From assembly GCA_040954595.2 (NCBI GenBank), contig CM082579.2, positions 14,980,550 through 15,044,549 on the forward strand: a stretch of 64,000 bases of DNA. The letters are read 5' to 3'. Both the position numbers and the translations under genes were made by a program. This stretch comes from Balanoglossus misakiensis. Taxonomy: Eukaryota; Animalia; Hemichordata. Positions 5,336 through 48,169 of the stretch are shown piece after piece. Positions within the stretch are counted from its first letter, which is position 1; every line of letters starts with the position of its first letter. The notes beneath the pieces were generated by a model. That model was not told where the DNA came from and did no database searches. It saw only the letters and a program-made list of their open reading frames with translations.

Positions 5336-5381
5336 ACTGAACGTACATTGTTTTAATCCAATCCATGTTCCTTCTTTGTAG

Positions 5382-5567
5382 ATATAAATGAATGTGCTTC
5401 ACATTCTTGTGATCAACTTTGTAAAAACACTGCAGGTGGTTTTCAATGTTCCTGTGAAGAAGGCTATCTCTTATATGCAAATAACGGCACAGGTGGATTC
5501 TATCTGCCACCTGGAGAAACTGGTTTCTCAATGTATGATGTCTACACTTTTAACCAATCATGTGTTC
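5382..5567 (+). CDS. uninflatable-like protein, cbEGF exon with the long uif-type insert
   Basis: ttgtag| ... c|gtaagt, 186 nt; encodes DINECASHSCDQLCKNTAGGFQCSCEEGYLLYANNGTGGFYLPPGETGFSMYDVYTFNQSCV. The GY.LY..NGT.G....E.G....D.Y..N..CV insert is what I recall from the Drosophila uif EGF repeat. Confidence 0.9.
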
Positions 5568-14670: not shown

Positions 14671-15616
14671 AATTTGATCAAATACTGCCTACCGCTGGCG
14701 CTGCATATTTGAAGAAATGTGAAAAGATGGCAAGACAGGTTTGGTAAATGTGGGCCCCCTAACTGAAGCAAAAGCACAAACTTAAAACAAAGATATGAAT
14801 TTGGAAGAGTTTTATTTAATACATATGAAAAATAATGAAGACTTATGCTTCAAAGTAAGTATCGACGGAGTCGAACCGCCAATGCTGCAATGGCATTATA
14901 CCCATAATACTTTTTTGCTTTTTGCATGAATTTCATTATTTTTCATATGCTGTGCAGCTAAAGTGTGGCTAGATGACTAACTGCTGATGTAAAATATCTT
15001 GCATACCAATTTGGAACAATTACCCCAAGTAGTGGTCAAACAGAAACAATGCTTGCATTCAATTTAAAACAAGGTGACAAAAGTGGTTGAAATGAAACAA
15101 TAAGCAAAAACAGTGTTTATCAAACTGAAATAATGTGGTCGAAATGAAACAATGAGCAAAAACAGTGTTTATCAAACTGAAATAATGTGCCAAAATAGCT
15201 CCTGTTGATATTGCACAAAATTAACTGTTGCATTCTACCCTTGAGTTAATTTTTATTTCCAGGCAATTATGTGCTTAATACTAAATATTATCTATGGGTA
15301 CAAACCATCAGTTTCTTAAGTGCAAATCGCAAGAAGCTCCCCCATACAATTTTAGTGTTTTTTTAAATCAAGCAAGATAATTACATACTGTGTGATAAAC
15401 TAACTAACTTTACGCGCCTGGGGACAGTTAAAAACCTCGAGCCAAATATAAAATGAGGAAAAACTGCCCCCTCCCCCGTTGTGAATTTTAAAAGGTTGGG
15501 GCTCAAACTAACCAGAATTGTCTTGCCGACTCCTATTTTTCTGTGTACATTTTGATGTATTGTTGTTACGCGAGATTGAGGATTCGTGTTGATGCGGGAA
15601 TTACGATGACGAAAGC

Positions 15617-16240: not shown

Positions 16241-16412
16241 CACCAACCCTTCACCATTTCATTAGATTATACCATTTTTATTAGCCTAACCTGTTTATAC
16301 ACCAACCCTTCACCATTCCGTTAGATTATACCATTTTTTATTACCCTAACATATTCATTCACCAACCCTTTACCATTCCCTCAGATTAAACCATTTTTAT
16401 TAGCCTAACCTA
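16241..16412. repeat. ~59-bp minisatellite, 3 copies
   Basis: caccaacccttcaccatt(t/c)c..tagattataccatttttattagcctaac repeated three times. Confidence 0.85.
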
Positions 16413-16598
16413 TTGACAGCATCCCTCTGGTTTTGATATTGTTATCTGGTGCGGCGTTGTTGTAGATATTGATTAGACTCCCTCCGGCGATGATAATACC
16501 AATGAACCTATTGAAAAAAAAGAATGAATATTATTAATTAGATCAGATCAACAAATCATGGCGTCGTTCATCCCTCTGGTCACAGGAGCATCATCTGG

Positions 16599-17225
16599 CG
16601 TCGTTACAGGTTTAAGTTCATCCCTCCAGTACAGTATAAGGTGGCGGCGTCGTTACAAGTATTAAGTTCATCTCTCCAGTACAGTATTAGGTGGCGGCGT
16701 CGTTACAAGTATTAACTTCATCTCTCCAGTACAGTATTAGGTGGCGGCGTCGTTACAAGTATTAACTTCATCTCTCCAGTACAGTATTAGGTGGCGGCGT
16801 CGTTACAAGTATTAACTTCATCTCTCCAGTACAGTATTAGGTGGCGGCGTCGTTACAAGTATTAACTTCATCTCTCCAGTACAGTATTAGGTGGCGGCGT
16901 CGTTACAAGTATTAACTTCATCTCTCCAGTACAGTATTAGGTGGCGGCGTCGTTACAAGTATTAAGTTCATCTCTCCAGTACAGTATTAGGTGGCGGCGT
17001 CGTTACAAGTATTAACTTCATCACTCCAGTACAGTATTAGGTGGCGGCGTCGTTACAAGTATTAACTTCATCTCTCCAGTACAGTATTAGGTGGCGGCGT
17101 CGTTACAAGTATTAACTTCATCTCTCCAGTACAGTATTAGGTGGCGGCGTCGTTACAAGTTTAAGTTCATACCTCCAGTACAGTATTAGGTGGCGACGTC
17201 GTTACAAATATTACACTCCCTCCAG
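16599..17225. repeat. 50-bp minisatellite, ~12 copies
   Basis: unit cgtcgttacaagtattaacttcatctctccagtacagtattaggtggcgg. Confidence 0.97.
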
Positions 17226-17989
17226 CAGCAGTGTTACCAAAGAACCTAATGTAAAAAAAGAATGAAATTATTTTAATAATCTGATTAGGTCAAGTCATCA
17301 TATTGATAAAGAAAACGACAAGAAGAAATCATTTAAAAATTAACGCTGCCAGCACCATTGGTTGGGCCCAAACGGTTCCCATGGTTACCATGGTATGCCA
17401 AGGCTGTATTCTGCTGTGAATACCAAGATATATGAAAGCTGGTCAAAGGTTACCCCAGGGTCATTGAAAATCGCAAAAAATAGCGTCAAGGACACTGTGG
17501 TCTCATTTAGTGATTACACTAGAAAAAGTCTACACAGGAGTACAGACAGACAGACACACACATAGAGAGGCAATAAAATATGATGCCCCCCCCCCAGCCC
17601 CGAAAACATCTTGATCTTATGTATGCTGGCCTGGTACAATAGACAAACCAGCCAATTAATGAAAATTTTGTACAAATACAGAGCTCAAAGTTGCATTTTA
17701 GTGAGCCCAAAAGCAAATTAACTCAATGTTACGACAAATTTTACTTTTGCCACTCAAAGTTTGCATCGGTGGGGTGGGATGGCAAGTACTCTTCCCTGAT
17801 ACAATAGACAAACCAGCCAATAAATGAAATGAGGTGAAGAATGAAGGTGAATAATGAATAACTTTATTTGATTCCATTATCTAAACAAACACATCCAATT
17901 AACTTCCTACTCAAATTTCAAAGTAATCAGTCATAGGTTTTGTAAATCATCATGAGAAATCACCCTGAAACCAAATCAAATCAAAAATC

Positions 17990-25340: not shown

Positions 25341-26034
25341 TTCTGATAAAATGCCTACATAGTAAGTTTAAAAACCAATTGTACCTTCAACGTCCTTGGA
25401 CAACAATGGCTAATATTACTTGCCAAGGGCGACTAGAATTTTGGGGGCCTGATGCAATTCTGATACATGTACTTCATGATTTAGAGATATTGTGAAAATC
25501 CTGTCAACCGAATTACAGGGAAATCAGATTTTCCATGTAAAATCATATCACCCAAAAATGTCAAGTGTCGAAAATAATTTTGAAACAAAAAGTCTACTCA
25601 AAATCATACCAAAATTTAAATTTTAAAGCAGTACGTTAGGCAAGCAATTTGAGAATGAAGAAACTTACAAAAAAATTATAAATTGAAAATAACTTACAAA
25701 TGCCGTACACAAACTTACAATCACTACCATATTACTGTACAAGTTAAAAGGACATTGTACCAGCAGAGACATTGCGATCGAGCAATCCCCAAGATATACA
25801 TGACATGGTCTAATTACAAATATTGAATATGTAAAATAGGTACACAACACTTCCATTCTTTCAGTACAGTCAGCTGCTTGTTAACAATAGGCATGTAGCT
25901 ATTTCATCAAATTTACAGCCCAAGTCATGCCTATACAATTCTCCCTTAAGCTACCCTAAGTGAGTGATGAAAATCTCATATGGTCGACAATTGATGGCCG
26001 ATTTTTGCCATGTTAAAGAAATGGGAGTTCATAA

Positions 26035-26824
26035 GGCTGCATTCACAAACACCTCTGGAGAGGGGGGGGGGGGGGCAGGAGAATTGAGCGGGGGGGGATT
26101 TGAAAAATTGAAGGTATGTAAGGGGGGATTTGAAATAATTTAGGGACTGAAAGGGGGGACTTGAAAACTTTGACGACTAAATATTTATTTTGAGTCCACA
26201 AAAATGCAGTTTCGCGCCCTTTATTTTACACCCCCTCCCACACCCACCCCCCTCCATTCATCAACACCTTTCAATCATTAACTGGTTTATCTAGTGTCCC
26301 ATGTCAGGGGACTTGCCCCCACCCCATGATAACTTTGAGCGGCGACGGTTAAATTTATCCTCCCCAACATACTGGTAGTTGAGTTAATTTGCTTTTGCGG
26401 GGTTCATAAAAATGCAGCTTTGAGCTCTGTATTTTATAAAATTTTCTTACGTGGGAGGGGGACACCCCTTCCCACACCCACCCCCTTCAATTCCCGGTTT
26501 ACAATGTCTCCCAACACAGAATACAAATACTTAAAAAATAAAAACCATGTTCAGTTTTAATACCCACTGATGAGGGGAAACATCAGTTTCAAAGTCTTTT
26601 CATGGGAGCGCTGTTTTTCTTTTTTACAAGATAGATAAGTGATGTGTTTTGCTCTGTGAAAGAAAATGGGGGGGGGGGATTTTAAAATTTTGGCAGTTCA
26701 GAAGGGGGTGGGGGATTTGAAAATATTTCGGGTTGTGTACAGGGGGGGGGGGCATGTGAAAATTAGCAGTAAAAAAATTGAATTCTCCCCCCCCCCCCAT
26801 CCAGAGGTGTTTGTGAATGGAGCC
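26035..26824. mobile_element. PIF/Harbinger-type MITE with TAA TSD
   Basis: taa|ggctgcattcacaaacacctctgg ... ccagaggtgtttgtgaatggagcc|taa; empty site gggagttcataagctaaa is present in the paralogous copy at about 33331-33348. Confidence 0.92.
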
Positions 26825-27258
26825 TAAGCTAAAGCTAAAGTGATAATGGGTCATAACAGACAAAATAACAAAATGTGAAAAACATTTAATGAGTTTAATA
26901 TGCTAACTACGGAGACAGACATGTTTGACCAAAGCATGAAATACACAAAATGTATCATTTCTTCCACCTCTTACTACAGTGGGTTGTAGACTTTTCGCCC
27001 AGAATGCAATGTGATTTGACCCCCTAGCGCAAAGTGAAAACCTATTTAAGGCAGCCAGAATTTTCTGCATAGTATGACGGAAACATTTGTAAAGTCATGG
27101 CTAGCGTGGGCTGGTAAGTTTATATGGGGCTCTCCATGATAACCAGTTGTGGCTTAATACCACCACCATAATTTTGAAAGGGCGACTTCACTATTTGATG
27201 GGAAAAAGTAGCCTTTACAAACAAGCTATGGAGCATGTATACAGCAAGTTGTGCTTAC

Positions 27259-27331
27259 CGGAAAGCGGTCTTGGATCAGGCCTGGGTATTCTCTTCCTCC
27301 TCCGGCATACGTTGAAATGCTGTGTTTAAGA
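27259..27331 (-). other. candidate micro-exon type A, copy 1 (73 nt)
   Basis: minus strand tttgattcacag|tcttaaacac...ctttccg|gtaagcac; splice sites conserved in the copy at 33996-34068. Confidence 0.6.
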
Positions 27332-28508
27332 CTGTGAATCAAATATATGCTTATCAATTAGTAACCAATCAACCTTGCTTTAGAATTATTTGGGCCATAC
27401 TAATTAGTGAAAATATGCAAAACATGGTATAATATAGGGTCAGACTGTGCTGCGATAATGTACGTGGAATACGAATCAGAGAAATCTGTAACAGCGATCT
27501 TGAAACTCCATTTACATCAGTACTGCAGTAAAGTGGTCCACATGGGTATACCTCAAACATGGCAGTTAGGTGACAAGTGAAACTGACATCATATCTGTAA
27601 ACGACAGGTGTACACACACTTTGACATCTACGTAACACTGTACAATGATTTCTTAATGTTTGTTGTGAAAATGAAACTTACATTTGATCCACCTCACTTT
27701 TCATACAACTGGTTAGCGCAAGAATGTAAATTGTTGGCAATTATAAAACATTTATTTTACTATAGAAAAGTAAGCCTTTACATTTAAACTTTGAATATCA
27801 GTATACTAAAATGTTTCAAACGTGGCTGTCAGTATATCTCATGGCATGGTGGCAGAAGTACATGTTGTTACCAGGGAAGACACATTGAACATAGACAAGC
27901 GCACTAGTCGCTTGGTGATTTTTCATCTAGATTCTCAAAACTTTCTGTGCATTTGGTAGCTTTGAGCAAGTTTCTGGTACTGAGCTGAGTTTCGAATTTG
28001 GAACTGGGCTGCTTTGGCTTTGATTACCATGGGCCAATATGATCTTATGCACACATTTTTGAAAAAAACTCCAGCCTGTTTGTGTCGTGATCTATATTTT
28101 TCTTTGTGGCCTAAGGTATTGTTTTATTTCACTATAAACAACATTACTTTCCTTCATGTGTCTATATATAATAATAGATCTCTTAGCCAGTTTGATGAAG
28201 CATAGTGTTGGACTAGCACACTTTCAGCCAAAATTACGGTATCTCCCCGTGTATTGGTATGGGAGTAATTTCTAGCTATATGGTTAAGGAAATGCATCCA
28301 AATTTAATTTATGCTTCACATGAAGATTTGAACTTGACCATTTAATTCATGTCATCACGATCATATCACAGGCAACCGAGGCTAGAATTCGAAGGAAAAA
28401 AGTATTGATAACTGGAAGGTGTAAATTAGTTCGTAGACATACATTGTTTCCTATTGTTTCGGTTGTGCCACGCCCGATAGAAGCAAATATACAGCAAGTC
28501 ATGCTTAC

Positions 28509-28583
28509 CATTGAGCGGTCTTAAACTCGCCCCCGACGAGGAAGAGAATCCCGAGTTGAAATGCAGACAATTTCAGGCAGCAT
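28509..28583 (-). other. candidate micro-exon type B, copy 1 (75 nt)
   Basis: minus strand tttgattcacag|atgctgcc...ctcaatg|gtaagcat; conserved at 34996-35070. Confidence 0.6.
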
Positions 28584-30799
28584 CTGTGAATCAAATAGAT
28601 ATAGAAGTTAGTAACCAGTCATAGTAGCTCTAAGTTGGGTGTAAAAGTCTAAGTTGGGTGTACTAACTCTCCTTGTTAACAGTAACTTTCAAAGAAACTG
28701 AGCAATTGGTTAAAAAGATTTGCTATCCAAAAACAAAGAAATTTACAACAAACTACCTAAATATTGACAACCAGAATTTAATCAAAGTTGCACATACATG
28801 TACATGTGTTATGAAATTGTTAACTAACTTCCAAAGCAATCAGGAACCAGATATTAACTGAATATGCTCACGTGCAGTACTGTGATTGGTTGACAGAATA
28901 ACAAGATTAGAAAAACCAGTTTTAAACCATTTTGGTTTATAGTGTATATGGTGTAAGGGTTGTGTGTTGCACCATTGTGAAATGTAAACATGTTTGTGGA
29001 ATTGTTGCCTTGTCAATTTTTGTAAGGGGTTATGAGTCATGTACCCCATCCTGAACTGCATAAAAATAATAAGTCTATGGAATTCTAAAACTCTTTGATC
29101 AAAAATGGCAAGAAATATACCAAAAAGTATGAATATTTCACCAGATTTCAACAAATCTGATTTCTGTTCATGCCTAAGAACCTCTTTAACAAGTTTCAAT
29201 AAGGTAGACATTTTGGCAAACAACAGGAAATTCAGACAAATCTGACTGATATCACATATATGAATTCCCATTCAAAGTTTCCAACCAATTGGACTTGTGG
29301 TATTACCGAAGACTATTTGGCCAAACCCTGCAGAAATTCCCAAAAAATACAATTATGCAAATTTCATTACAATTTGATCATATCTGACTGAGATCACCCC
29401 TAGAAACCCAAATACAAAGTATCAAAACAATTGCACCTACATTTCACAGGATTGGATTTTTTGGCAAAAACAGGAAATATTGCCCAAAAATGCATTTTTG
29501 CAAATTTCACCACCGTTTGCACAAATGTGATTCAGGTAAGCCCTATGAACCTCCATACCAAGTTTCCAATCAATTGGACATGTAATTTCAGAGAAAAATT
29601 TGTTTTAACAAAACTGCAGAAAATTCCCCCAAAAATTCATAAAAAATAGGAAACGCCAGATACTGACTCCACCTGAACAAAATCATACGAGGTCTTCCCA
29701 AAGTACTTGCACACCAATGCACGCCAATTTTTAACTTAATCTGATCCACTGTTATTAAGTTTTTCAATTTTGACTATTTGAACATTTTTCCAGTTAATAC
29801 CAGTATGCATTTTTTCGCAATAACAATTTCTATGTACACACTAAATATCAGTAGTTTCAAGTTTTTGATGTTGATGGACATACACATACATACATCAATA
29901 CATTAAGACGAAACTGATCCATTCACAAAATACATAATTCTGTATGAGGCACACATACAGACGTACATAGCCGACGGACACCAACTTATGCTATAAGCTG
30001 ACATTTATATACATGTTAGCCAAAAACCAAAATCAACCTCAAAATAGACATTAAAATATATTGCACCACCATGAGAAGACAAATTCATTTTTTGACAAAT
30101 TTTCTGGGGCGTCATTGATATAGCATGGCATATTGTCAAAGTACGTAGGCTCTGTGATAAGATTCCATACACACAAAATGGTAACCTTGGAAGTCCAGCT
30201 GACGTAGTTATGCAATGGCGTCTCGTGTATTCCGTCGCCAAAAAATCATCGTAAACTAATTGATAGTCGGGGTCACAATTCAAGACGACTTTCTCTAAAT
30301 TCTTTATGAATGGATTAAATCGAAATCGAAATGTTGACGTATGACGTACGGAATGAGATCTGAACAGACATTCAATGTTATCATTCTCGCTCGATCACAT
30401 ATTGGGTAGGCCATCTAGCAATCGCTATATAGTATTGGCGATAACAGACTGTCTATAAACACACAAAACGGATTTTACTGTTGAGTGTGATCAACCGCCA
30501 TGTTATTTTTCTCTGAACAATAGACAAATAGAAAGCCTGGTGACATTTTGAGATTGACTGCGTGAGGACCACAATATGCGTGAATCATTTACGGTTTGTC
30601 TTGATGAATGGGTCACGTCATAGTCATAACGCGGATTCGGCTGCACGCCAACTATCCGCCATATTGTCTCCACTAACTTACTCGTAAGTAGTTTCAAACT
30701 TCATTTGAAAAGAGTATTCGTCTGACGGTCCTGTAGATTAACAATTTACGCTCTATGAAGCAACTAAACAACGTTAGCTTCCTTGTGGATTCACGTAGG

Positions 30800-31180
30800 G
30801 AAGTTATTCGTAACGACGGGTACAGCGTCTGAGCATGGACAGAACCACGGCAATATCGCCAGGAATGTCTCATTTCACAGCGCCCTCAAACAGTCGATCT
30901 CCTCAAACTATCGTTTCCACTGGTCATATATGCAGCATTAACGAAAGCTCTCATAGACAACCATGTAATAGAAAAATTAAAACTTTAATAACTTCATTAA
31001 TATCAAAGTCACACCCACCAAAACCTTTCCAGTTCTTGCCATATGATATCTGAACCTGTGTACTAAATTTGGTTGAAATCGGTTCAGCGGTTCTTGAGAT
31101 ATCGGGTATACAGACAGACACACACATACACAGACATCGCTAAACTATAAGCTCACGTGATTTTCAGGTGAGCTAAAAAT
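30800..31180 (-). mobile_element. HINE/DINE-1-like element
   Basis: (CAGA/CACA)n microsatellite followed by the agctcacgtgattttcaggtgagctaaaaa terminal hairpin; left boundary approximate. Confidence 0.55.
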
Positions 31181-33995
31181 TGGGTTACCCCTAGGAATAT
31201 TCCTACCATATTTCAAAGCCATCAAAAAAGCAGTTTCAAAGAAAAACCACATTTGTTCAAAAGTGGCAAAAACACAAATATGCAAACATCTCTATAATTG
31301 TACACCATCTTACTTCAATCACTACAAGGAACATTCCTGCCAAAATTCAAAGCAATCTGACAAGGGTTTGAACGGTTTAACAGAAAACAGTTTTTGACAA
31401 AGATTGCAAAAAATATCCCCAATAACACAAGCACGCAGTTTTAACCATTTTTATGACATGTTCCTTGGGTTACCCCTGGGAATCTGCCTACCAAATTGCA
31501 AAGCATTCTGACCATAATTGGCAAAATTGCTCAAAATTATAAATATGCCTATTTTACAACAATCTGAACAAAAAATATGGTAACTCGGACCACCCATAGG
31601 AAGCTTCATACTAAATTTCGAAGGAGTCGGACTATCGCTTTCAGAAGTGAAGATTTTTTTTTACCAATAATGTGGAAAAAGACAAAAAAAATTAATAAAC
31701 ATTAGAAAATTCATAATATTAGCTCACAACATACAGGACTGTATGGGGTTCATTGACATACCAATCTGACCAGTGGTTGTCAAGTTTCTGACTTTTGACC
31801 AATTTCACATTTACACAGGTAATATTTTGGCAATGACAATTTCATTTGAACAAAATCCCATCTACAGCCCCGCCTGCATCTACACACTAAATATGGAAGT
31901 GATATGCCCAGCGGTTTTCATCCATTCACTCATACATACAAATGCAACTGATTCCATAAGGTCCCAATCGTATATATGTACATAAACCAAATGGGACCTA
32001 AAAATTGCTCCAAAATTATAAATACGCAATTTTTGGCAACAATTTAAACAAAACTATGGTTGGTAACTCAGATCACCTATGAAGCTTCATAATAAATTTC
32101 AAACAAGTCAGCTGATCAATTCCAGAAAAGTAGGTTTTTACCGACAATGTGGAAAGAGACAAAAAAAATGCTTAAAAATAGAAAATTCACATTATTAGCT
32201 CACAACATGTAGAATTGTGAGAGGATACCATAAGGTACATGCATACCAATTATCAATTTTGAAAGCAATTTGCCCAGTAGTTGTTGAGTTCCCAAGTTTT
32301 GACGAATTTGACACTTTCCCAGCTAATTTGCATATTTTGGCAATGACAACTTCACTTAGACAAACTCCCATCTACTGCCCCGTCTGCACATTAAATATCA
32401 AGGTGAAATGCCAGTAGTTTCCAAATGTTTGATGTTGATGGACATACAAACATCCATACATACAGGTGCAACTGATCCCGTAAGGTACCATGGTATAAAT
32501 ACATATACCAAATGGGACCTAATAATTCTGATAAAATGCGTACAGACGTACATACATACAAGTCAGCAATAAGGAGACGGGATAGTGGGCTGGCACTGAG
32601 TGTCTATTTCTATTGCAAATTATAAACATGCAGCAAGTGTAAAAACCACATGTACCTTCAACGTCCTTGGACAACACATTTTTGTAACTTTCCCAGATCA
32701 ATGGCTAATATTACTTGCCAAAGGCGACTAGAATTTTGGGGGCCTGATGCAAGTCTGATACATGTACTTCATGATTTAGAGATATGATGAAAATCCTGTC
32801 AACCGAATTACAGGGAAATCAGATTTTCCATGTAAAATCATATCACCCAAAAGTGTCAAAAATAATTTTGAAACAAAAAGTCTACTCAAAATCATACCAA
32901 AATTTAAATGTTAATGCAGTACGTTAGGCAAGCAATTTGAGAATGAAGAAACTTACAAAATAATTTATAAATTGTAAATAATTTACAAATGCCGCACACA
33001 AACTTACAATTACTACCATATTACTGAACATGTTAAAAGGACATTGTACCAGCAGAGACATTGTGATCGAGCAATCCCCAAGATATACATGACATGGTCT
33101 AATTACAAATATTGAATATGTAAAATATGTACACAACACTTCCAGTCTTACAGTACAGTCAGCTGCTTGTGAACAATAGTCATGTAGCTATTTCATCAAA
33201 TTTACAGCCCAAGTCTTGCCTATACAATTCTCCCTACTTTAAACACGTTTTAAGCTACCCTAAATGAGTGATGAAAATCTCATACGGTCGATAATTTCAA
33301 GATGGCCGATTTTTGCCATGTTAAAGAAATGGGAGTTCATAAGCTAAAATGATGATGGGTCATTCTTGAACTTTTTAACAGAAAAAATAGCAAAAGTGAA
33401 AAAAAGTTTAATATGCTAACTACCGAGACAGAAATGTTTGACCGAAGGAAGTCATGAAATACAGTAAACATATCATTTCTTCTATCTCTTACTACAGTTG
33501 GTTATGGACTTTCCGCCCAGAATGCAATGAGATTTGACACCTAGCGCAAAGTGAAAAACCTATTTAAGGCAGCCAGAATTTTCTGCATAGTATGACGGAA
33601 ACATTTGTAAAGTCATGGCTAGCATGGGTTGGCAGGTTTATGGGACCCGCTCAGGTTCCCTCGAATAACACATAATGCATGATTGGTGACTGATTATTGT
33701 TTATTTGTTGATTTTGTCACATTTTCAGAAAAATCCCTATCAATCAGTCATATTTGTTTGGCCTTGCTATACAGCGCAATATGAATCTTGTTGACTGAAA
33801 TTGTTGAGGATAGTGGTACATAAAGGTTACCAATTGGAAAATATTAAAATGATTATTAGTGGTGTCCAACTCTTCATGATAACCAGTTGTGGCTTGCCAC
33901 CACCATAATTTTAAAAGGGTGACTTCACTATTTGATGGGAAAAGGTAGCATTTACAAACAAGCTATGGAGCATGTATACAGCAAGGTGTGCTTAC

Positions 33996-34068
33996 CGGAA
34001 AGCGGTCTTGGATCAGGCCTAGGTATTCTCTTCCTCCTCCGGCATACGTTGAAATGCTGTGTTTAAGA
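33996..34068 (-). other. candidate micro-exon type A, copy 2
   Basis: one substitution relative to 27259-27331; cacag| and |gtaagc intact. Confidence 0.6.
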
Positions 34069-34406
34069 CTGTGAATCAAATATATGCAAATATTAATTAG
34101 TAACCAATCAACCTTGCTTTAGAATTATGTGGGCCATACAAATTAGTGAAAATATGCAAAACATGGTATAATATAGGGTCAGAAAAAATTTCCAGCCTGT
34201 TTGTGTCATGATTTACATTTTTCTTTCTGGCCTAAAGTATTGTTTTATTTCACTCTAAACAACATTACTTTCCTTCATGCGTCTAATATAATAACAGATC
34301 TCTTAGCCAGTTTGATTAAGCATAGTGTTGGACTAGCACACGTTCAGCCAAAGTTAAAGTATCTCCCTGTGTATTGATATGGGAGTAATTTTAGCTATAT
34401 GGTTAA

Positions 34407-34753
34407 AGGGACAAAGTCTCTCTGTCGCTGTCCTTTTTCCATTAATTATGTTTGATACAAGACACTGTTTATGTCAATGTACATTTGGATATATAGTGAA
34501 TAAATGATCAACCACACAAAACTTCCATCCCGCTTGTATGATATGAGAGTAAAAACTCGCCCAAAATGAATAAATGGTAAAGAACGATTATTCATTTTGG
34601 CGAGTATTTTTACTCTCGTGTCTACAAGTGGGACGGAAGTTGTGTGTGGCTGAACGTTCATTCACTATATATCTACATGTAGAATAACAAACGGTGTCTT
34701 GTATCAAATATAATTAATGGAAAAAAGGGCAGCGAGAGAGAGACTTTGTCCCT
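34407..34753. mobile_element. Kolobok-like MITE with TTAA TSD
   Basis: ttaa|agggacaaagtctctct ... agagagactttgtccct|ttaa; empty site atatggttaaggaaatgc in the paralogue at about 28278-28296; family copies at about 55500-55820 and 56457-56747. Confidence 0.92.
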
Positions 34754-34995
34754 TTAAGGAAATGCATCCACATTTATTTTATGCTCCACGTGAAGATTTG
34801 AACTTGTGAGTTGTCCATCTAATTCATGACATCACGATCATATCACAAGCAATCGAGGCCAGAATTCGAAGGGGAAAAAACAGGTACATTGTATTGAAAG
34901 CTGGAATATGTAAATTAGTTCGTAGACATACATTTCTTCCTATTGTTTCGGTTGCAACACCCGATAAAAGCAAATATAAAGCAAGTCATGCTTAC

Positions 34996-35070
34996 CATTG
35001 AGCGGTCTTAAACTCGCCCCGGACAAGGAAGAGAATCCCGAGTTGAAACGCAGACAGTTTCAGGCAGCAT
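34996..35070 (-). other. candidate micro-exon type B, copy 2
   Basis: paralogue of 28509-28583; cacag| and |gtaagc intact. Confidence 0.6.
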
Positions 35071-35272
35071 CTGTGAATCAAATAGACATAGAAGTTAGTA
35101 ACCAGTCATAGAAGCTCTGCGTGGCAGGGCTGCGTGTTAACGGCTATACCATAGCTCCCACTGGTAGCTTATAACAGTCTCAATGGTGCCAAAAATCTCC
35201 CCAACAACAAAACCAACCCTGGTCAGTTTATTCGCTATCGCTTTGCCTTAAAAGTTATACTGTAGTGTGCTC

Positions 35273-35689
35273 CCACAGGGGGCTCCTTCCTCCGCGATTT
35301 TATTGTTTGTTTGTTGTTGTTGATTGGCATAATAAACAAATACATATTTCTTTATTAATAAATATGGTTTGTTGACATGTAAGTGTTAGGGTATATTCAA
35401 CAGTTAGGGTTACTGTTGGCATTTTTTTCGATCCACGGCCCCGGGCATCACTAAGCCACAGGGGGTGGGGGGGGGGGGGGTTTGGGGGGGTGATGCCGGC
35501 CATGGATCGAAAAAATGCCAACACTAATTCTAACCGTTGAATATACCATAACCTGTCAAATATACCCTAATAACCTAACCCTTACATGTCAACAAACCAT
35601 ATTTATTAATAAAGAAATATGTATTTGTTTATTATGCCAATCAACAACAACAAACAAACAATAAAATCGCCTAGGGAGAGCCCCCTGTG
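35273..35689. mobile_element. foldback/palindromic non-autonomous element
   Basis: ~90-bp near-perfect inverted arms (35294-35383 / 35581-35670), inner arms tgttggcatttttttcgatcca / tggatcgaaaaaatgccaaca, outer arms ccacagggggct / agccccctgtgg, G-run spacer. Confidence 0.8.
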
Positions 35690-35943
35690 GTGTTACGGTA
35701 CCACCTGCTCCACAATAACAAAGCTGACTCGAGCCAACGAACGACGTACAATTTACTCGCACGGTGTAATATAACGCACAAATTCCATGCGACTGTGAGT
35801 TTACTGTTTGGTGCTGTAACGCTTCCCAAAGTCAGAATTTCGATGTTGGGGGGACCCTCTCGCCCTACCACGACCAGTTTTTGCGAGAAGGAGTGTACAT
35901 GTACTTGTAAAATAACATTAAATGCCATGCTTACCAGAGAAAC

Positions 35944-35993
35944 GACATCATCAAGCATGGAGGCGACCGGGACCTCCATGCTTGATGAACGTC
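35944..35993 (-). other. perfect hairpin next to a candidate splice donor (possible small-RNA precursor)
   Basis: tcatcaagcatggagg (35948-35963), 9-nt loop, cctccatgcttgatga (35973-35988); minus-strand donor ctg|gtaagcat at 35935/35934. Confidence 0.45.
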
Positions 35994-38256
35994 AAAGCTG
36001 CAATGATTTTTCAAATGCAATGGTCAGCGGTACGAGAACGAGGCACCAGCTGTGCGTCAATTATGCAACTTACTTACTACTCAATCAGAATCCTGCTTCA
36101 ACATGACGTAACACTAATTAGTCAAAGAATGCAATGCAACGTATGTGTGCGGGTGGAGAATGCGCCTCACGTCAATGCAGACACACCAGACACACACACT
36201 GAAATGCAAATTGAGGAATTATGTCACGGTGTTCTTTGGAAGTGCGAATGAATAAAATATTTCGTTTTCTTCAGTGTTTTTGTACTACAAAAAAAATTGC
36301 TAAAAAACGACTAGCAAGCGCTTATGCAATGAAATACAAATAAATATAATTATCGCCAATTGGAAATGGAACGTCAATCCGCATTTGTCAAAAAATAACA
36401 GAAAAGACAAAGGAGCTGAGACGTCCTAAAATAAAAGGAATGACCTCTCTGTTCTGACCTGTATGAGGAAGCCCTATTGTAATACGCAATATGTAGGATC
36501 ATGCTACCATCCGCCATTCTGATTGGACGAGAGATCAATCCATCGATACGAAAGTACTCAATAGAGCACTGCTAAAACTGGCCCCTGAACTAATAGCATG
36601 CAACAGGGAAAACGTGACTAAATAAAAAAAAATATAGCTGATAAATTTACGGACGGCCGGTTTATTTTTTAACTGCTCTATTGGAACTGTTGTCACTGTC
36701 ATGCACGATGCATGTCTTGTCATTGCGCACTCGTGTTAACATTCATCAGAGCGCCTTTCGATCAATTCGTAACGTTTACATTAGACTCGAGTTCATTTTC
36801 GTTATGAAAATGACATTGATATACACAAAGTCGATTACTGATATAAAATAATAGCAATAACCCTAACCATAGATTAGGCTATAGCATTCCGGTATTTTTT
36901 TCAATATCACTCAGGAAGGATTCTATAACAGTCTGTTTTGTATCGGGATGTATAATTTAATATCCATACTACAAAACAAATATCAGCGGTAACTCAGAAA
37001 ATATTGTTGAAAATTTGTTCTCTGTAGGCCTAACCATGGTAAGATAATGCAATGCCGGTAAGTATTTTGGAAGTCAAGGTTGCATTGTATTGTCTGGTGT
37101 TCAAATAATCACAAACATCCCGGAAGACTAAATTCTTTCTGTCAAAACCACTTCTGCAACGACAAGAACTTTCAGGGCAGGCAAAACCATGGCATGAAGA
37201 CGATATGAAGTCGATGAGTTAATGTTATGTTGAACCCGGCCACTTTACGTATCTTAACTATTCACACATTGACCATTCTATAATTCTCTCCCTTTTAATG
37301 TCTTCTTTGTGGTTTGTTTGTAAAAATGTTGCCTGTGTTGAAACTTGACTACTTGTCACTTTTGCCTACCAAGAATAATATGACCAAAAGGGGTGGCATG
37401 AAATTCTAGACTGTAACAAAACTCGATTTCATGACCCAAAGTTTGATTTTATGTGTTTTTGGTTTGGACGTGGCAAAGACATGTAAATTCCGACCACCTA
37501 TACACCATCCATACATGTATGAATCGACATCATTTATTGCACGAGAGACTTCAAGCAAGCATTCCATCATCGCAAAAGGACAAAGAGAGAGCGACTTTGT
37601 CTCTTTAAATTAATTTAGCAAGTTCAAAGTGAATGCCCACATGAAAACCTTTACTCAGCAATTTTTTTTGTAATTAATAAAACTAGGTTTGGTATGTTTT
37701 TGCGCTTGTTTTATTTTCCTTTTGTCTATAAATAGTCGTATATTTTAAAACAGCTAAAATGAGTCAAATGGGGCATTTTTCCATCCCACCTCATCCTAGC
37801 TAAGAGCTTCAGTGCCGGTCACCTCCACAAAATTAATTTACCACGAACAAATTGAAATACAGCCAATCGGAAAAAGTGCGCCACCACATGGTCATTTGAA
37901 GACTTTTATGCTCTCTTCTGGCCGTAAACGCATGTGATCTGGAATAAATCGAACATCGATCGTGTTTTATTTATTTTCACCACCAGCGAAAATCTACGAC
38001 GGCCCAACCGCAGATTATTGCTGCTCCATACAACAACCGGCTTAAACTGTTCTGTGCATGTGTTTTGTGTTCTGGTGGCGTTTGCGGGTCTGAGACGTCA
38101 TTTGTAGAAGGCCCTATTCGTTTTCTACCAATAACTTTTACCAACCATGCTAGAACTATTTCGTTTTCTTTGACGACGCTTGACACTTTTCTTGCTTTGT
38201 TGTTAGTACATGTAGTTTGTTTGTTCGTTACGTCTGTTACTGGGGTTCTTCACTTG

Positions 38257-41200
38257 TAGTCTGGTTACACTATGAGATAGGTGCCGTTAATCAGAATTTT
38301 TGGTAAGGAAGGTTTGAGAAGTCCATTCTATGTAAAAAATGGTGCTCATTCCAAAAAAGTCAGTCTTATTAACCCCACTCAAGACAAAATTGCCATTTTG
38401 GCCATTTTTAACCCCAAAATGGTCTTTTTTTAGAAAACACTAAAAACACATTGTTTTCGTCACATTCTGAGATCTGATAACATATGATATGCTTATTCTA
38501 TGTAAAATTTGGTGAATATTACGAAAAAAGTAGTTCGATTGACCCAAAACAACAGAAAATTGCCTTTTTGACCAATTTTTGCCCCAAAAACGTCATTTTT
38601 AGAAAAAAAATAAAACACACGGTTTTCTTCATAATGATTGATCTGGTGATATATGGAAAGTCAATTCTATGTTAAAAGTGGTGACTTTAAAAAATAAAGC
38701 AGTCTTTTTGACCTCAATCAATACAAAAATGCCATTTTTGGCCACTTTTTGTGGTCAAAAAAGGTCATTTTTACAAAAAAAACTAAAAATAAATTGTGTT
38801 TATCATATTCAGAGATCATTGGATATATGAAATGTCCATTCTATGTAAAAAATGGTGCTGATTCCAGAAATAGCAGTCTTATTGACCCTACTCAAGAAAA
38901 AATGCCATTTTTGCCACTTTTTGCCCCAAAACGTCATTTTCAGAAAACACACAAAATTTATATATTTTCTTCACTTTCGGAGATCTGATAATGTATTATA
39001 TGCCCACCTTATGTAAAATCTGGTGATTATTCGAAAAAAGCAGATTTATTGACCCAACCTAATGCAAAAATGCCCTTTTGGAAAGTTTTTGCCCCAAAAG
39101 GCCATTTTTAGAAAAAAATTTAAAAACAAACTTTTCTTCATAAAGCTCAGAGATCATGTGATATATGAAATGTTCATCCTATGTAAAAAATGGTGCTGAT
39201 TCCAGAAATAGCAGTCTTATTGATCCTACTCAAGAAAAAATGCCATTTTGCCACTTTTTGCCCCCAAAACGTCATTTTCAGAAAACACTCAAAATTTATA
39301 TATTTTCTTCACTTTCGGAGATCTGATAATGAATTATATGCCCACTGTATGTGAAAAATCTCCAAAAAAGCAGTTTTATTGATGCCACTCAAGATAAAAG
39401 TGCCTTTTTGGCAAGTTTTTGCTCAAAAAGTGTCATTTCTAGAAAATACGAAAATTATGCCATTTTCTTCCCATTGGTGATCAAATGATAAATAAAAGTA
39501 CTAAAAAACCCACTCTTACTGACCCCACTGAGGGAAAAAAATATCATTTTGGCCTCTTTGCTCAAAAAGGTAACTGTTAGAAAAAATAAATACAAACTTA
39601 TTCCTTTATATTCAGAGCCCTTGTGATGTATGTAAATTCGTTTTTTTTTTGTGTGTGTGTGCAAAAAATATGCTGATACCAGCACAACGGTCTTATTGAG
39701 ACACCCCGCTCAGTACAAAATTGCCATTTAGCCATCTTTTGGTCAACAATAGGCATTTTCAGAAAACAAATATAATTGATGTTTTTGCCTTTTGTGTTCT
39801 GATGTTGTATATGCATATTTAAAACGCCATAACCATATAATGTCAATTAAATTGATGATATTGAAAGACAGGGTTGCCACAATTTGGCAAATTTAGCCCA
39901 AAACTGAACTTAACAATAAGATGATCCATGTATACGCACTGTCTACTATAAGTCGATTATGCGTGGTGTGGAATATTTAGGTTCAGATATGCCAGCTCGG
40001 GAGAGAGTGTTGAAATTTATTCTCTTCAATCTGAATACAAAATCAGAAATTTTATTATAATTTATATCATGATACCTCCGTCATACTGATTGGACAGGAG
40101 TGCAACGATGCTAGAATACTCAATAGAGCACTGCTAAAACTGGCCCCTGAACTAGCACGCAGCAGGAAAAATGTGGGTTTAAACTAAATAAACATAAAAC
40201 CCTTGACGTTTTAATTTGGAACTGCTGTATGGGAATATTTGGGCAATGTGCAATGCCTTTCTTTTGTCATCTGTATCATGTTTAGAGCTTGGTCCCGGGC
40301 GGCGTGTTTACATTCATTGACGCGAGTTTTGTTCCATTCGTAACTTCTTTTCCTCTCGACGCTGTTTCATCATCATTATGAGTTCAACTTGGGCTAACTT
40401 TGCAAAAACTCCAAATACAAACATTTTTTCGGTACAAAATGGCTAAAATGATAATTTTTTCTTGAGTAGACCTATTTTTGGCTACAAATAGCAAAAAAGG
40501 CAATTTTGACAACCAGAGTGCCGTTTTTGGAATAGTCACCAAATTTTACACAGAATGGACTTTTCATACATGATCAGATCTCTGAATATGAAGAAAACAA
40601 TTTGTCTTTAGTTTGTTTGTTTTTAATGAACATTTTTGACCAAAAAAGTGGCCGAAATTACAAATTTCAATTGAATAGGGTAAGTAAGACTTCCGTTTTT
40701 GGAACAGTAACCACGTTTCAATATAGAATGGGCTTTTATTTATAATAAGATCACCGAAAGTGAAGAAAAGAGAATGCTTATTAATATATTCTTAAAAATA
40801 ACAATTTTGTGCAAAACTTAGCCAAAAAGGTGATTTCATCATGGTTGAGGTAATTAAGACTGCATTTCTGGAATCAACACCTATTTTACAATAAATGTAC
40901 TTTTCACACATCATAGAATCTCCAAATAAGAATCAAACAGTTTGTTTATAATGATTTTCGAAAAGTGGCTTTTTGGGCAAAAACTTGTCAAAAAAGCACT
41001 GTTTTCTTGAGTGGCGCTAGTAATTTTTTTTTGAATTTTTTCACATAGAGTGGGTACATAATACATCATCATCTCCGAAAGTGAAGAAAATATAAAAGTT
41101 TTGGGTGTTTTCTAGAAATGACACTTTTTGGGCAAAAACTTGCCAAAGGGCACTTTTATCTTGGGTGGCATCAATAAAACTGCTTTTTTGGAAATTTTTC

Positions 41201-42328
41201 ACATAAAGTGGGCATATAATACATTATCAGATCTCCGAAAGTGAAGAAAATATATAAATTTTGAGTGTTTTCTGAAAATGACGTTTTTGGGGCAAAAAGT
41301 GGCAAAAATGGCATTTTTTCTTGAGTAGGATCAATAAGACTGCTATTTCTGGAATTAGCACCATTTTTTACATAGTTTGAACACTTCATATATCACATGA
41401 TCTCTGAGCTTTATGAAGAAAAGTTTGTTTTTAATTTTTTTTTCTAAAAACGGCCTTTTTGGGTAATAACTTTCCAAAAGGGCATTTTTGCATTAGGTTG
41501 GGTCAATAAATCTGCTTTTTTGGAAAAATCACCAAGTTTTACATAGGATGGGCATATAAGTGAAGAAAATATATAAATTTTGAGTGTTTTCTAAAAATGA
41601 CGTTTTGGGGCAAAAAGTGGCAAAAATGGCATTTTTTTCTTGAGTAGGGTCAATAAGACTGCTATTTCTGAAATCAGCACCGTTTTTTACATAGAATGGA
41701 CACTTCATATATCCAATGATCTCTGAATATGAAAAACACAATTTATTTTTAGTTTTTTTGTAAAAATGACCTTTTTTGACCTCAAAAAGTGGCCAAAAAT
41801 GGCATTTTTGTATTGATTGAGGTCAAAAAGACTGCTTTTTTTTAAAGTCACCACTTTTAACATAGAATTGACTTTCCATATATCACCAGATCAACTATTA
41901 TGAAGAAAACCGTGTTTTTTATTTTTTTTTCTAAAAATGACGTTTTTTTGGCAAAAAATGGTCAAAAAGGCAATTTTCTGTTGTTTTGGGTCAATCGAAC
42001 TATTTTTTTCGTAATATTCACCAAATTTTACATAGAATAGGCATATCATATGTCATCAGATCTTAGAATGTGACGAAAACAGTGTGTTTTTAGTGTTTTC
42101 TAAAAAAACACCATTTTTGGGTTAAAAATGGCCAAAATGGCAATTTTGTCTTGAGTGGGGTCAATAAGACCATTTTTTACATAGAATGGACCTCTCAAAC
42201 CTTCCTTACCAAAAATTCTGATTAACGGCATCTAGCTCCTGGAGTAGGTCCCCTGCCCCATTCCCACTGCCATCGGCGCTACGCTCAAGGGCGCAGCCAG
42301 CGGTGGGAATGGGGCAGGGAACAGACTA
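38257..42328. mobile_element. Academ(H)-like non-autonomous element with 9-bp TSD (host of the foldback)
   Basis: cttcacttg|tagtctg ... cagacta|cttcacttg; internal GC hairpin ccctgccccattcccac / gtgggaatggggcaggg. Confidence 0.75.
38274..42238. mobile_element. ~4-kb foldback DNA transposon with >1-kb TIRs built from A/T-tract subrepeats (GAG...CTC ends, Sola-like)
   Basis: gagataggtgccgttaatcagaatttttggtaaggaagg / ccttccttaccaaaaattctgattaacggcatctagctc; arms about 38274-39450 and 41100-42238 are reverse complements; no transposase ORF. Confidence 0.85.
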
Positions 42329-45346: not shown

Positions 45347-45835
45347 TCAACACGAAAGAATTACTATTTTCTTGCTGACGTATCTGGCGATTATTCTGAT
45401 TTGATAGTGTGTCGTTTCTTCTTCTGGGTTGCTCATACCCTTGCTGGCTGACATTTCTTTGTCGTATGTTTGTCTCTGTGGTAGCATTGTCATTGGCATT
45501 TCTCTGGGGGTGTTTTCTGTGTTGGCAGTTGCAGGTTCTGGTGCTAGGGGAGTGTTGACATCTGCCTGGGGTGTTGCATCGGCTGGCGGTTGAACGGTGT
45601 TGTCGTTGTTCGATGCCGCATCTCTGTGTCGTGGCGGCTGTCCGGCTCCTGCAAACGCAGCGTACTGAGACACGAATGGGTTCGGGTATGACATCTGCTG
45701 GAAGTGTTGCTGGTATGCTGCGGCTGGATAGGGTGGGGGTTGTTGGTTCGCAGAAGCTACAGGCTGGGGTGTGTTTGTGCTTGTGCTTGTTGTGGCAGTA
45801 TCAGCAGAGGTTGCTATGCTTTTCTTTGTCTCTTC
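45347..45835 (-). CDS. probable terminal coding exon, Pro/Ala/Thr/Gln-rich tail with a PPPY motif; gene unidentified
   Basis: strong acceptor ttctttttatcctccacag|, then 162 open codons: EETKKSIATSADTATTSTSTNTPQPVASANQQPPPYPAAAYQQHFQQMSYPNPFVSQYAAFAGAGQPP...SC*; GC content higher than the flanks. Confidence 0.6.
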   Translation of the reverse strand, partial: EETKKSIATSADTATTSTSTNTPQPVASANQQPPPYPAAAYQQHFQQMSYPNPFVSQYAAFAGAGQPPRHRDAASNNDNTVQPPADATPQADVNTPLAPEPATANTENTPREMPMTMLPQRQTYDKEMSASKGMSNPEEETTHYQIRIIARYVSKKIVILSC

Positions 45836-48169
45836 CTGTGGAGGATAAAAAGAACACAGTGTTTTTGCAAAGGTCGGGGAACACTGGTAATGGATTTGGG
45901 AACCCCGTTAATATTCCTATAACCTCCTAATATAACCACATTGATACACCCAGGGGAACCCCGGTAAAATGACTGGGGAACTCTGGTAGACTGCCTGACC
46001 ACTGTGACATTGGCCTTGTTCTGTTGTTTTAATTCGGAGTGACTGGGGTACTCCGGTAGATTTTATCTAGGTACCGCCCTTAACAAAAACACTAGAACAG
46101 AATCACAATTTGGAAGGCATGAGAGGCAAATACCATTTAAGGATGTACACGCACAACATAAACTGATAAACAGTGCATGTGTGTCTGTTCCTGAAAGGAT
46201 TACATCGATAATTGCCAGAAAACAAACTTCTACTATTGTCTTTTTCACGAAATTTTACACATAGCTCAGACAAGTAAACGTAAATTCCTTGGTCAAAAAA
46301 AATTATGTGGTCACCAAGCTCTATTATGAGATAAATTGCGTTAAAATCTTCGCCCATAGACAAACCATTGGTGAAAAATGCTGAGACAGCAAATTTCTTC
46401 TATTATCAACTAAATTCATGGCTCTGTATTTTTTTTAAAAAGGGCAATGACCCCTACAATTTTTAACGGATTCTCATTATACATACACAGCATAATCCAA
46501 AAATCCACAATTAAAAGAATGACAATACTTTCAACGTGTATAATACCAGCATACACCTGTTTCAAGTCCAGTGTCCTAATACACCATCATCATGAATTGG
46601 AACTCAAAGCAAGGCCAATGAGCAAACCCAGATTGACAACTCATTACACCAGCAAAGTGGTTTCTTTATGGAAGTGGTGGTACCAATAAATACTTTATTA
46701 AAGGTAAGAATTTCTTATTGTAGCAGTATTTTCATTTCCATTCATGTTTTAAAGGCCTTTTTTGTAGATTCTGAGTTTCTATGCCAGACAAAGTATGATT
46801 ATTTTTCCACTAATGCAGCCTGAATTAAAGTCAACATTTTTCACCATAGGTCTTTCTATGTTATTTTTCTATAGGCATGGACACATTTAAGTTTATCTCA
46901 AAACTGAGCACAGTGGTGAGCCTACAACTTATATGAATCACTCAATTTAATTTCATTTGGATGAGTTATGAGTGAAACTTCTTAAAATTACAATAGTAGA
47001 AAAGGGTTTTCTATCAATTCTTAATGTTATCCTATGGGAAGAAACACATTCCATGAGCTCATACATGTAGTGTGTGCCCATTCTTAACCCTTTCAGTATT
47101 ATATGAATCAGATATAGAAGCTTGTTCAACGTCCCGTTGCGGCCAAGCCAATCAGATTGCACGTTATGTCAATCAAAACTGAAGGATACCTAAAGTTCTC
47201 TATAAGGCACCGTCTGATTGGTTTACTAGAGTTTTCAACGGGAGCTTCTATGGGAGTTGGTCAGATGTAGTGTGAGGCGACAGTATAAGAATACCGTACT
47301 GCGAAGTAAAAGACGTCGCCGTACCCTACATCTGATTTTAATCAGATTGTATGCACACATAAGCTGGTTTAGAATACTGATAAACCCTGATGAAACAATC
47401 TCAGTAAAATATATACAGATGAGAATGAGAATGCAGTTAAAGTTAAATATACATTCGTTGTATCTTTTGGCTTTATTTCCAGTATTTTTGTTCTATGTAG
47501 CAAATGCGATTTCATGTTCTACTCCACACAGATTGTTACTTGTCAGCACAGAATGTATGTGTATAATGGCCATTGTCATTGTTGACAATAATTCATGGAT
47601 TCTAGTCTGGACTTAAATTCCAATTTGGCACAATAACAATGCTGACCATACACATATATGTTTCATCATGTTTCGGGAATTTGCACAAGAAACTGCTAAA
47701 CAAAGATACTGAAAACATAGGAAAAAGGTAAAGGTAATGGAGCTTTAATTACAATTCACACTGTATACAAAATCCATGTAAAAATTCAAAATACTGGATT
47801 TGTCAGCTTCAACTGATATGGGGGTCACACAAGAAATTGCTAAAACGTCTCAGATCAAATACTGGCATAAATTATTATTGGTGAATGGTTTAAGTGGTCC
47901 TGAATCTTCTCAGATTTGAGACACGTCTCTTACCAGGTTCACACAGGGTAAAATTTGAGACACTATTAGTCTATGGTAAACACAGAGCGTTAATACTTTG
48001 GGGGGGGGGGTTAGCTGGGCAGACCCGCCCTCCTTTATTTTTTGCCACCCTGCTATCTTACGCGCCGCCCTGCTTTCTTTTCATTCCCGCCTTGGTAAAT
48101 ATTTATTGTTTCTGGTGCACGCTCCCGCATGCGGCTGGCATTTGAGAGAATGATATTTATTCAGTTTAG

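What the first reader, a model, noticed from the sequence alone, without database searches (positions are those of the whole stretch)
27259..35070. Paired micro-exons with mutually complementary cores: a hairpin RNA that would be assembled by splicing
Seen: four 73/75-nt minus-strand segments, in transcript order B(34996-35070), A(33996-34068), B(28509-28583), A(27259-27331). Each is bounded by tttgattcacag| and |gtaagc. A and B are old paralogues that share gcatttcaac and aagaccgct, but the segment between those anchors is inverted: A reads CCGGAGGAGGAAGAGAAUACCC and B reads GGGAUUCUCUUCCU(C/U)GUC(C)GG. These pair over about 20 bp with one bulge and one mismatch. A differs by only 1 nt between the duplicated copies, and no convincing long ORF runs through the exons. 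Inference: a spliced non-coding (or UTR) transcript in which intron removal brings two arms about 1 kb apart into a ~20-bp stem with a ~45-nt loop across the junction. It could act as a splicing-dependent small-RNA precursor or structural switch, present twice through tandem duplication.
Basis: partly seen in the sequence, partly recalled or inferred. Interest (0 to 1): 0.78.

Follow-up and report, generated by a model that had tools for sequence, protein, structure and literature searches.

The report
Micro-inversion makes two exons complementary
Two related, exon-like pieces in an animal genome are complementary to each other, most likely because a roughly 30-base stretch flipped in one of them after duplication; the RNA hairpin they are predicted to form would not need splicing and is likely a by-product, though it could be raw material for a new small-RNA gene.

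Summary
The four segments, their splice signals, their paralogy and the B:A complementarity are real. The pairing is larger than reported: it runs along most of both exons and includes a perfect 9-bp stem at the junction. One mutation explains it. B's core lies between near-perfect 9-bp inverted repeats (52 of 20,000 shuffles match that), and flipping back A positions 21-50 makes A colinear with B (109 of 156 columns): the signature of an inverted-repeat micro-inversion. The core duplex is predicted equally in unspliced RNA, so 'assembled by splicing' is not supported. All tests for selection are weak (p 0.07-0.25). B+A also has an open 49-codon frame (chance 28%). No RNA of this species could be obtained, so splicing and small-RNA output are untested. 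Verdict: likely a by-product in a small exon family; about 0.2 that it is a working intron-split hairpin RNA.

The parts
34996..35070 (-). B1: 75-nt exon-like unit; core at exon positions 32-52 (35019-35039)
   Evidence: pairing list
35039..35047 (-). left arm (B24-32) of the 9-bp inverted repeat flanking B1's 22-nt spacer
   Evidence: 8 of 9 complementary to the right arm; 52 of 20,000 shuffles as good
35008..35016 (-). right arm (B55-63) of that inverted repeat; also B's side of the 9-bp junction stem (B58-66)
33996..34068 (-). A1: 73-nt exon-like paralogue of B; inverted segment at exon positions 21-50 (34019-34048)
34069..34995 (-). 927-nt putative intron B1-A1, carrying a multi-copy palindromic element at about 34403-34757
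   Evidence: matches at 55.5-56.7 kb; contig depth 47-69
28509..28583 (-). B2: second copy of B (4 differences); same inverted-repeat arms at 28552-28560 and 28521-28529
27259..27331 (-). A2: second copy of A (1 difference); inverted segment 27282-27311
27332..28508 (-). 1177-nt putative intron B2-A2
35935..36049 (-).
   Evidence: acceptor vs A1 0 of 2000 shuffles, vs A2 1, vs B1 6; donor vs B1 6 of 2000, vs A1 97
35948..35988 (.). perfect 16-bp stem with 9-nt loop inside C, about 21 bp with wobble and one bulge
   Evidence: only perfect stem of 14 bp or more with loop up to 30 nt in 64 kb; z -6.05, 0 of 200 shuffles
36201..37000 (.). CpG-rich stretch upstream of C: candidate promoter (inferred)
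   Evidence: CpG observed/expected 1.0-1.4
30201..31000 (.). CpG-rich stretch upstream of B2: candidate promoter of the second copy (inferred)
   Evidence: CpG observed/expected 1.3-1.45
30682..30704 (-). ATG-to-donor stretch whose phase fits the open frame of B2+A2 (coding rival only)
35757..35788 (-). ATG-to-donor stretch (weak donor) whose phase fits the open frame of B1+A1 (coding rival only)
   Evidence: not detectably related to the 30682-30704 stretch (733 of 1000 shuffles as good)
25361..28631 (-). extent of the second duplicated unit (partner of 32632-35118), 4-9% substitutions in flanks

Best explanation
B and A are paralogous exon-like units whose complementarity was likely made by one micro-inversion after duplication, and the duplex they are predicted to form is likely a by-product that would not depend on splicing. 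Steps: (1) an exon with its splice signals was duplicated in tandem to give C, B and A (shown by sequence). (2) B carries a 22-nt spacer between near-perfect 9-bp inverted repeats (shown). (3) In the A lineage the spacer flipped, by template switching or microhomology repair at those repeats (inferred; flipping it back restores colinearity, shown). (4) Because arm-spacer-arm with a flipped spacer equals the reverse complement of the original, B and A pair end to end: core with core, B's right arm with A's left arm (the junction stem), B's left end with A's right end (shown in folding). (5) The B-A pair was duplicated again recently (shown). The units are probably still spliced exons of a small lineage-specific transcript, non-coding or with only short frames (inferred), in which the duplex can form before or after splicing and has no demonstrated job.
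For: Inverted repeat hugging the core: 8 of 9, 52 of 20,000 shuffles. Re-inversion of A21-50 lifts the alignment score from 84 to 128 (109 of 156 columns) and from 72 to 114 (107 of 158). Size and flanks fit described micro-inversions of 17-33 nt, all flanked by inverted repeats (PMC8755829, abstract and section 6). C's first 12 nt match B at 7 and A at 2, so B looks ancestral. Core no better conserved between A and B than other homologous sequence: 18 of 21 vs 77-80 of 111, p 0.10 and 0.15. Exons vs flanks between the recent copies: 5 of 148 vs 29 of 422, p 0.085; vs 98 of 1597, p 0.11. Duplex predicted in unspliced RNA. 49 nt between the arms is at the extreme for deuterostome miRNAs (PMC12553114, Figure 1 legend). 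All 9 splice-signal positions are kept between A and B, in favour of real exons.
Against: Every selection test leans the same way, towards conservation of the duplex, though none is significant: 3 of 4 variants in paired core positions keep a pair (p 0.07). The third paralogue C holds an unrelated perfect 16-bp stem, the only one in the window, and the five exons cover 0.8% of non-satellite sequence: hard to call chance. The inversion is not clean (5 extra bases at one end, decayed arms in A). The repeat test was made after seeing the sequence. Spliced RNA stabilises the junction stem (0.97 vs 0.54-0.61). Only two recent copies and one extra haplotype were available, so power is low. Splicing itself is untested.
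Confidence: 0.53

Rival explanations
1. A working hairpin-RNA gene: a transcript C-B-A whose exons supply two 20-bp stems, one inside C and one split over B and A, cut by Dicer (with or without Drosha) into small RNAs. The inversion created the split stem and selection kept it; splicing shortens the loop from about 1 kb to 49 nt.
For: Two independent 20-bp stems in one exon family; 3 of 4 core variants keep pairing; 20 pairs in the core and pairing along most of both exons; template switching is a described source of new miRNA hairpins (10.1101/2023.04.19.537475, passages); intron-split miRNAs exist in plants (PMC11706861, passages).
Against: No test of constraint is significant; the lower stem is broken into short helices and the inter-arm stretch is 49 nt; C's stem is about 21 bp, short of the 35 bp preferred for primary miRNAs (passage); no Rfam family at gathering score, and no match over the exons at E up to 5; no complementary target elsewhere in the window at up to 6 mismatches.
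Confidence: 0.2
2. Exons of a small protein gene: an ATG-bearing first exon, B as a symmetric phase-2 exon with a hydrophobic, signal-peptide-like stretch, then A or another exon. The complementarity is still the inversion's by-product.
For: One frame is open through B+A in both copies; B is a multiple of three; 3 of B's 4 copy differences are synonymous; an ATG with a phase-compatible donor lies upstream of each copy; peak 11-residue hydropathy 2.1; C and B have the first anchor 12 nt apart, in the same frame.
Against: An open frame arises in 28% of 5000 shuffles; synonymous 3 of 5 p 0.14, 3 of 6 with the extra allele p 0.22; one B codon takes three different amino acids among three alleles; A is read out of register with B and has a stop in the homologous frame, as has C; C spliced to B makes a stop at the junction; A spliced to B2 ends within 20 codons; in-frame ATGs were found for 11 of 25 donor-like sites, so they are common; the two first-exon candidates are unrelated.
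Confidence: 0.14
3. The duplex acts in the pre-mRNA as a splicing control: B pairs with A across the intron, covering A's 3' splice site and holding it about 9 nt from B's donor, so that B and A are included or skipped together.
For: In unspliced RNA the 9-bp stem covers the last G of A's acceptor and A1-8 with probability 0.54-0.61; the core duplex is predicted at about 1.0.
Against: The same geometry follows from the inversion without selection; equilibrium folding of a 1-kb pre-mRNA ignores co-transcriptional splicing; no isoform data.
Confidence: 0.06
4. Untranscribed relics: decayed exons or fragments of a low-copy mobile element that are no longer spliced.
For: Exons are not significantly better conserved than flanks; no terminal exon could be fixed; the region is dense with repeats.
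Against: AG, GT and the donor context are intact in all five units despite about 30% divergence between types; CpG-rich stretches lie upstream of both copies; only 10 contigs of a DNA run lie on 27120-28700 at 80% identity, and the exon variants listed match the two copies plus one allele.
Confidence: 0.07

Closest known systems
Inverted-repeat-flanked micro-inversions (human-chimpanzee set, PMC8755829; abstract and section 6 read)
   Same: Inverted stretch of 22-30 nt, inner edges of a near-perfect repeat of 8 nt or more at the boundaries.
   Different: Seen here between paralogues 1 kb apart in one putative transcript, so both orientations coexist and can pair; older, with an unclean end.
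Template-switch-born miRNA hairpins (10.1101/2023.04.19.537475; abstract and passages read)
   Same: One replication event yields a stem or flips a loop; C's perfect stem fits this.
   Different: Those stems are contiguous, mostly intronic and 30-55 nt long; B:A is split over two exon-like units; no expression data here.
Intron-split plant miRNAs: miR444 family and miRtop14 (PMC11706861; passages read)
   Same: 5' and 3' arms would lie in different exons with an intron between.
   Different: Plant, with small-RNA and target evidence and conservation across a family; here an animal, untested, with no conservation data, and the duplex is predicted without splicing.
'Inc-miRs', intron-interrupted miRNA genes (Zhang, Maniar, Fire 2011; only the reference entry seen; paper not held)
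   Same: Concept of an animal miRNA hairpin interrupted by an intron.
   Different: Recalled, not checked: that work rests mainly on engineered introns in C. elegans. A natural case arising by exon duplication and inversion would be new.
Drosophila hairpin RNAs (hpRNAs) (PMC10317233; passages read)
   Same: Young, lineage-specific, often spliced and tandemly duplicated fold-back transcripts.
   Different: hpRNAs typically match a target gene and need Dcr-2; the stems here are only about 20 bp and no target is seen in the window.

Membership tests
Inverted-repeat-flanked micro-inversion | Segment that aligns only as reverse complement inside otherwise colinear sequence | tested here: met
   score 128 vs 84 and 114 vs 72 after re-inverting A21-50
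Inverted-repeat-flanked micro-inversion | Perfect or near-perfect inverted repeats at the boundaries | tested here: met
   8 of 9 in B, 52 of 20,000 shuffles; decayed in A
Inverted-repeat-flanked micro-inversion | Direction fixed by an outgroup | tested here: inconclusive
   C's 5' end sides with B (7 vs 2 of 12), but C's interior does not align with the core
Animal miRNA (MirGeneDB criteria as quoted in PMC12539619) | Imperfect hairpin with at least 16 paired nucleotides in the stem | tested here: met
   B:A core 20 pairs in copy 1, 19 in copy 2; C about 21 pairs; both are predictions
Animal miRNA (MirGeneDB criteria) | Reads from both arms, 5' homogeneity, 2-nt offsets | not testable with these tools
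   no RNA run of this organism obtained
Animal miRNA | Canonical geometry: 30-35-bp stem, short loop | tested here: not met
   B:A has a fragmented lower stem and 49 nt between arms; C has about 21 bp; compare PMC12553114 abstract start and Figure 1 legend
Known RNA family (Rfam 15) | Match at gathering score | tested here: not met
   0 matches; 10 weak matches, none over the five exons; spliced forms could not be searched
Intron-split miRNA (miR444, miRtop14 type) | Intron between the arms removed in the primary transcript | not testable with these tools
   splice signals present; no reads
Intron-split miRNA (miR444, miRtop14 type) | Conservation of both arms across species | not testable with these tools
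   no relative's genome held; pattern scans found nothing
Drosophila-type hpRNA | Long duplex with complementarity to a target gene | tested here: inconclusive
   no target within the window; rest of genome not searchable
Protein-coding exons | Open frame under purifying selection, with homologues | tested here: inconclusive
   frame open but at chance level; searches empty but the control exon also missed its own protein
High-copy transposon fragment | Many genomic copies | tested here: not met
   10 contigs on the stretch at 80%; contig depth 3-6 over exons vs 47-69 over the intronic element (depth is only a rough guide)

The most novel reading that the evidence does not exclude
A natural intron-split hairpin-RNA gene in an animal, born by exon duplication plus a micro-inversion: one exon family supplies a contiguous stem (C) and a stem split over two exons (B, A), and splicing sets how much small RNA the split stem yields. 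It would show a one-step route from a duplicated exon to a splicing-gated small RNA.
Probability: 0.18. Interest if true: 0.75.

Novelty: new member of a known kind. Interest (0 to 1): 0.36.

Why it matters
As it most likely stands it is a clear example of how duplication plus a repeat-flanked micro-inversion makes two exons complementary without selection, a warning for scans that read complementarity as function. If small RNAs come off the B:A stem, it would be a natural animal counterpart of the plant intron-split miRNAs (none turned up in searches of a library that lacks most subscription papers) with its mutational origin still readable in the DNA.

Tried and rejected
RNA evidence: the run search listed no RNA holder. 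No whole genome is held. Exact-pattern scans: 0 in metagenome contigs for two patterns, 0 in viral contigs for C's hairpin. Protein searches: Pfam 0 for the four exon peptides; A2's frame 0 at 77-2000 and 23-76 residues; B2's frame 0 among 1.84 billion representatives; Atlas no usable hit. These blanks carry little weight: a certainly coding EGF exon of this window returned only one distant protein. Homology of C's stem to the A or B core: not significant (379 and 1553 of 2000 shuffles). Homology of A to the exon-like pieces at 17.2 and 16.5 kb: not significant (344 and 1081 of 2000). A multiple alignment without re-inversion misaligns the interiors. The junction-stem probabilities printed used a wrong offset and were recomputed. 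The shuffle value for the junction stem (25 of 20,000) was rejected as independent support because the stem derives from B's own inverted repeat. No terminal exon could be fixed. Earlier findings: nothing near or alike. PMC6097652 (splice-site-overlapping miRNAs) was seen as a search listing; a term search in it returned nothing. No supplements were read; miRNA catalogues of hemichordates in supplements or databases could hold these arms unseen.
Full report
What was checked. The four segments are at the stated coordinates on the minus strand, 75, 73, 75 and 73 nt long. The 12-nt acceptor word occurs four times in the window, at these places only, and a 7-nt donor word occurs five times: after these four and once at 35934. 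B differs at 4 of 75 positions between copies and A at 1 of 73. The pairs belong to a duplication of 32632-35118 and 25361-28631. The window is from an animal: it holds a spliced sushi/EGF gene. Earlier notes on this genome call it an acorn worm; I did not test that.

The complementarity is real and larger than reported. Spliced B+A folds at -50.0 and -48.0 kcal/mol (1 and 3 of 300 shuffles as stable), while each exon alone is unremarkable. Besides the 20-pair core (B32-52 with A27-48), B58-66 pairs perfectly with the junction base and A1-8, and B10-30 pairs loosely with A50-71. The arms are 49 nt apart.

One event explains all of it. B's core is a 22-nt spacer between two 9-nt arms that are complementary at 8 of 9 positions (52 of 20,000 shuffles; a test made after seeing the sequence). 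Flipping back A21-50 makes A colinear with B from the branch point to 30 nt past the donor: 109 of 156 columns, score 128 against 84 without the flip. Micro-inversions of 17-33 nt between human and chimpanzee are all flanked by such repeats (PMC8755829, abstract and section 6). An arm-spacer-arm unit with a flipped spacer is the reverse complement of the original, so the core duplex, the junction stem and the lower stem all follow from duplication plus inversion. The flip is not clean: five extra bases lie at one end and A's arms have decayed. That the flip happened in A is inferred from B's intact arms and from C's 5' end (7 vs 2 of 12).

Splicing is not needed for the core. In equilibrium folding of unspliced B-intron-A, seven sampled core pairs have probabilities 0.98-1.0 in copy 1 and 0.97-1.0 (one terminal pair 0.52) in copy 2, like the spliced forms. 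Splicing raises only the junction stem, from 0.54-0.61 to 0.97. Folding a 1-kb RNA at equilibrium is a rough model, and a short loop would still matter for Dicer-type processing.

Selection is not shown, but not excluded. Exons vs flanks between the recent copies: 5 of 148 vs 29 of 422 (p 0.085) or 98 of 1597 (p 0.11); A alone p 0.25, B alone p 0.21. Core vs other homologous sequence between A and B: 18 of 21 vs 77-80 of 111 (p 0.10, 0.15). A DNA run that holds the stretch, which may be the window's own source, shows one more allele at B50 and the same base in both A copies. Of four variants at paired core positions three keep a pair through G.U wobble (expected 0.28 each; p 0.07). All lean towards constraint; none is significant; they share data.

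A third paralogue. A profile of the four units gave a weak hit at 36089-36041. It marks a 115-nt unit C (35935-36049) whose acceptor and donor are related to those of A and B (0-6 of 2000 shuffles for four comparisons, 97 for the fifth). C holds a perfect 16-bp stem, the only perfect stem of 14 bp or more with a loop up to 30 nt in the window (z -6.05), unrelated in sequence to the B:A core. The five units cover 0.8% of non-satellite sequence. This coincidence is the main reason to keep a hairpin-RNA gene at about 0.2. It could also mean that this repeat-bearing exon is prone to template switching, which makes perfect stems in one step (10.1101/2023.04.19.537475, passages). CpG-rich stretches lie upstream of C and of B2, so a C-B1-A1 transcript and a second one for B2-A2 are plausible (inference).

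Against a canonical miRNA: the lower stem is fragmented, C's stem is about 21 bp where 35 is preferred (passage), and only one of 13,788 deuterostome miRNA homologues has a loop above 50 nt (PMC12553114, Figure 1 legend). The 16-pair criterion is met; the three read-based criteria (PMC12539619, passage) could not be tested. Rfam gave nothing over the exons.

The coding rival. But an open frame arises in 28% of shuffles, the synonymous excess is not significant, such ATGs occur at 11 of 25 donor-like sites, and A and C have stops in the frame homologous to B's. Protein searches were empty but uninformative, since a control exon missed its own protein.

Not high-copy debris. Ten contigs of the DNA run lie on 27120-28700 at 80% identity; 8 pieces were shown and fit the two copies. 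Contig depth over the exons was 3-6 against 47-69 over the intronic palindromic element (depth is only a rough guide).

What could not be done. No RNA holder was listed; the two RNA runs laid do not contain this organism; no genome or relative is held. Splicing, expression, processing and cross-species conservation are untested.

Comparison and verdict. By origin this is a new member of a known kind, the repeat-flanked micro-inversion. By possible function it resembles plant intron-split miRNAs, reported only for miR444 and miRtop14 (PMC11706861, passages), and young Drosophila hpRNAs (PMC10317233, passages), but it cannot be filed with either. Four searches showed no natural animal case; the 'inc-miR' paper was seen only as a reference. 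Best reading: by-product in a small exon family, 0.53; working hairpin RNA 0.20; small protein 0.14; relic 0.07; splicing control 0.06. Interest 0.36.

Noticed in passing
window 17170-17245 and 16408-16507, minus strand: Two related exon-like pieces behind near-identical pyrimidine-rich acceptors (0 of 2000 shuffles), each with a short open frame; the first runs into a 50-bp tandem array (16597-17213) made from its own sequence. Atlas gave only sub-0.9 leads for the second.
   Followed up: partly
window 1430-5567, plus strand: Exons of a gene with sushi and calcium-binding EGF domains; its continuation past the satellite was not traced.
   Followed up: partly
window 6401-14672: 8.3-kb satellite of 90-bp units interrupted at intervals by runs of a 74-bp derivative; two frames stay open for over 1600 codons.
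   Followed up: no
window 45350-45835, minus strand: Probable last exon of an upstream gene, rich in Pro, Gln, Ala and Thr; no Pfam match.
   Followed up: partly
window 38321-42178: Large inverted-repeat element built of 160-170-bp subrepeats.
   Followed up: no
window 48154-48534, plus strand: Frame with a Cys/His pattern recalled as the zinc finger of hAT-type transposase relics (label recalled, not tested).
   Followed up: no
window 50149-54169, minus strand: Broken reverse-transcriptase-like frames, apparently two LINE relics (label recalled, not tested).
   Followed up: no
window 34403-34757 and 35273-35690: Two palindromic elements inserted in the first copy only, one in the B1-A1 intron and one between C and B1; Rfam's weak miRNA matches fall on them.
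   Followed up: partly
first 27 nt after the donors of B and A: A 4-5-bp stem could cover the donor in both types; positions that differ between types fall mostly in its loop.
   Followed up: no
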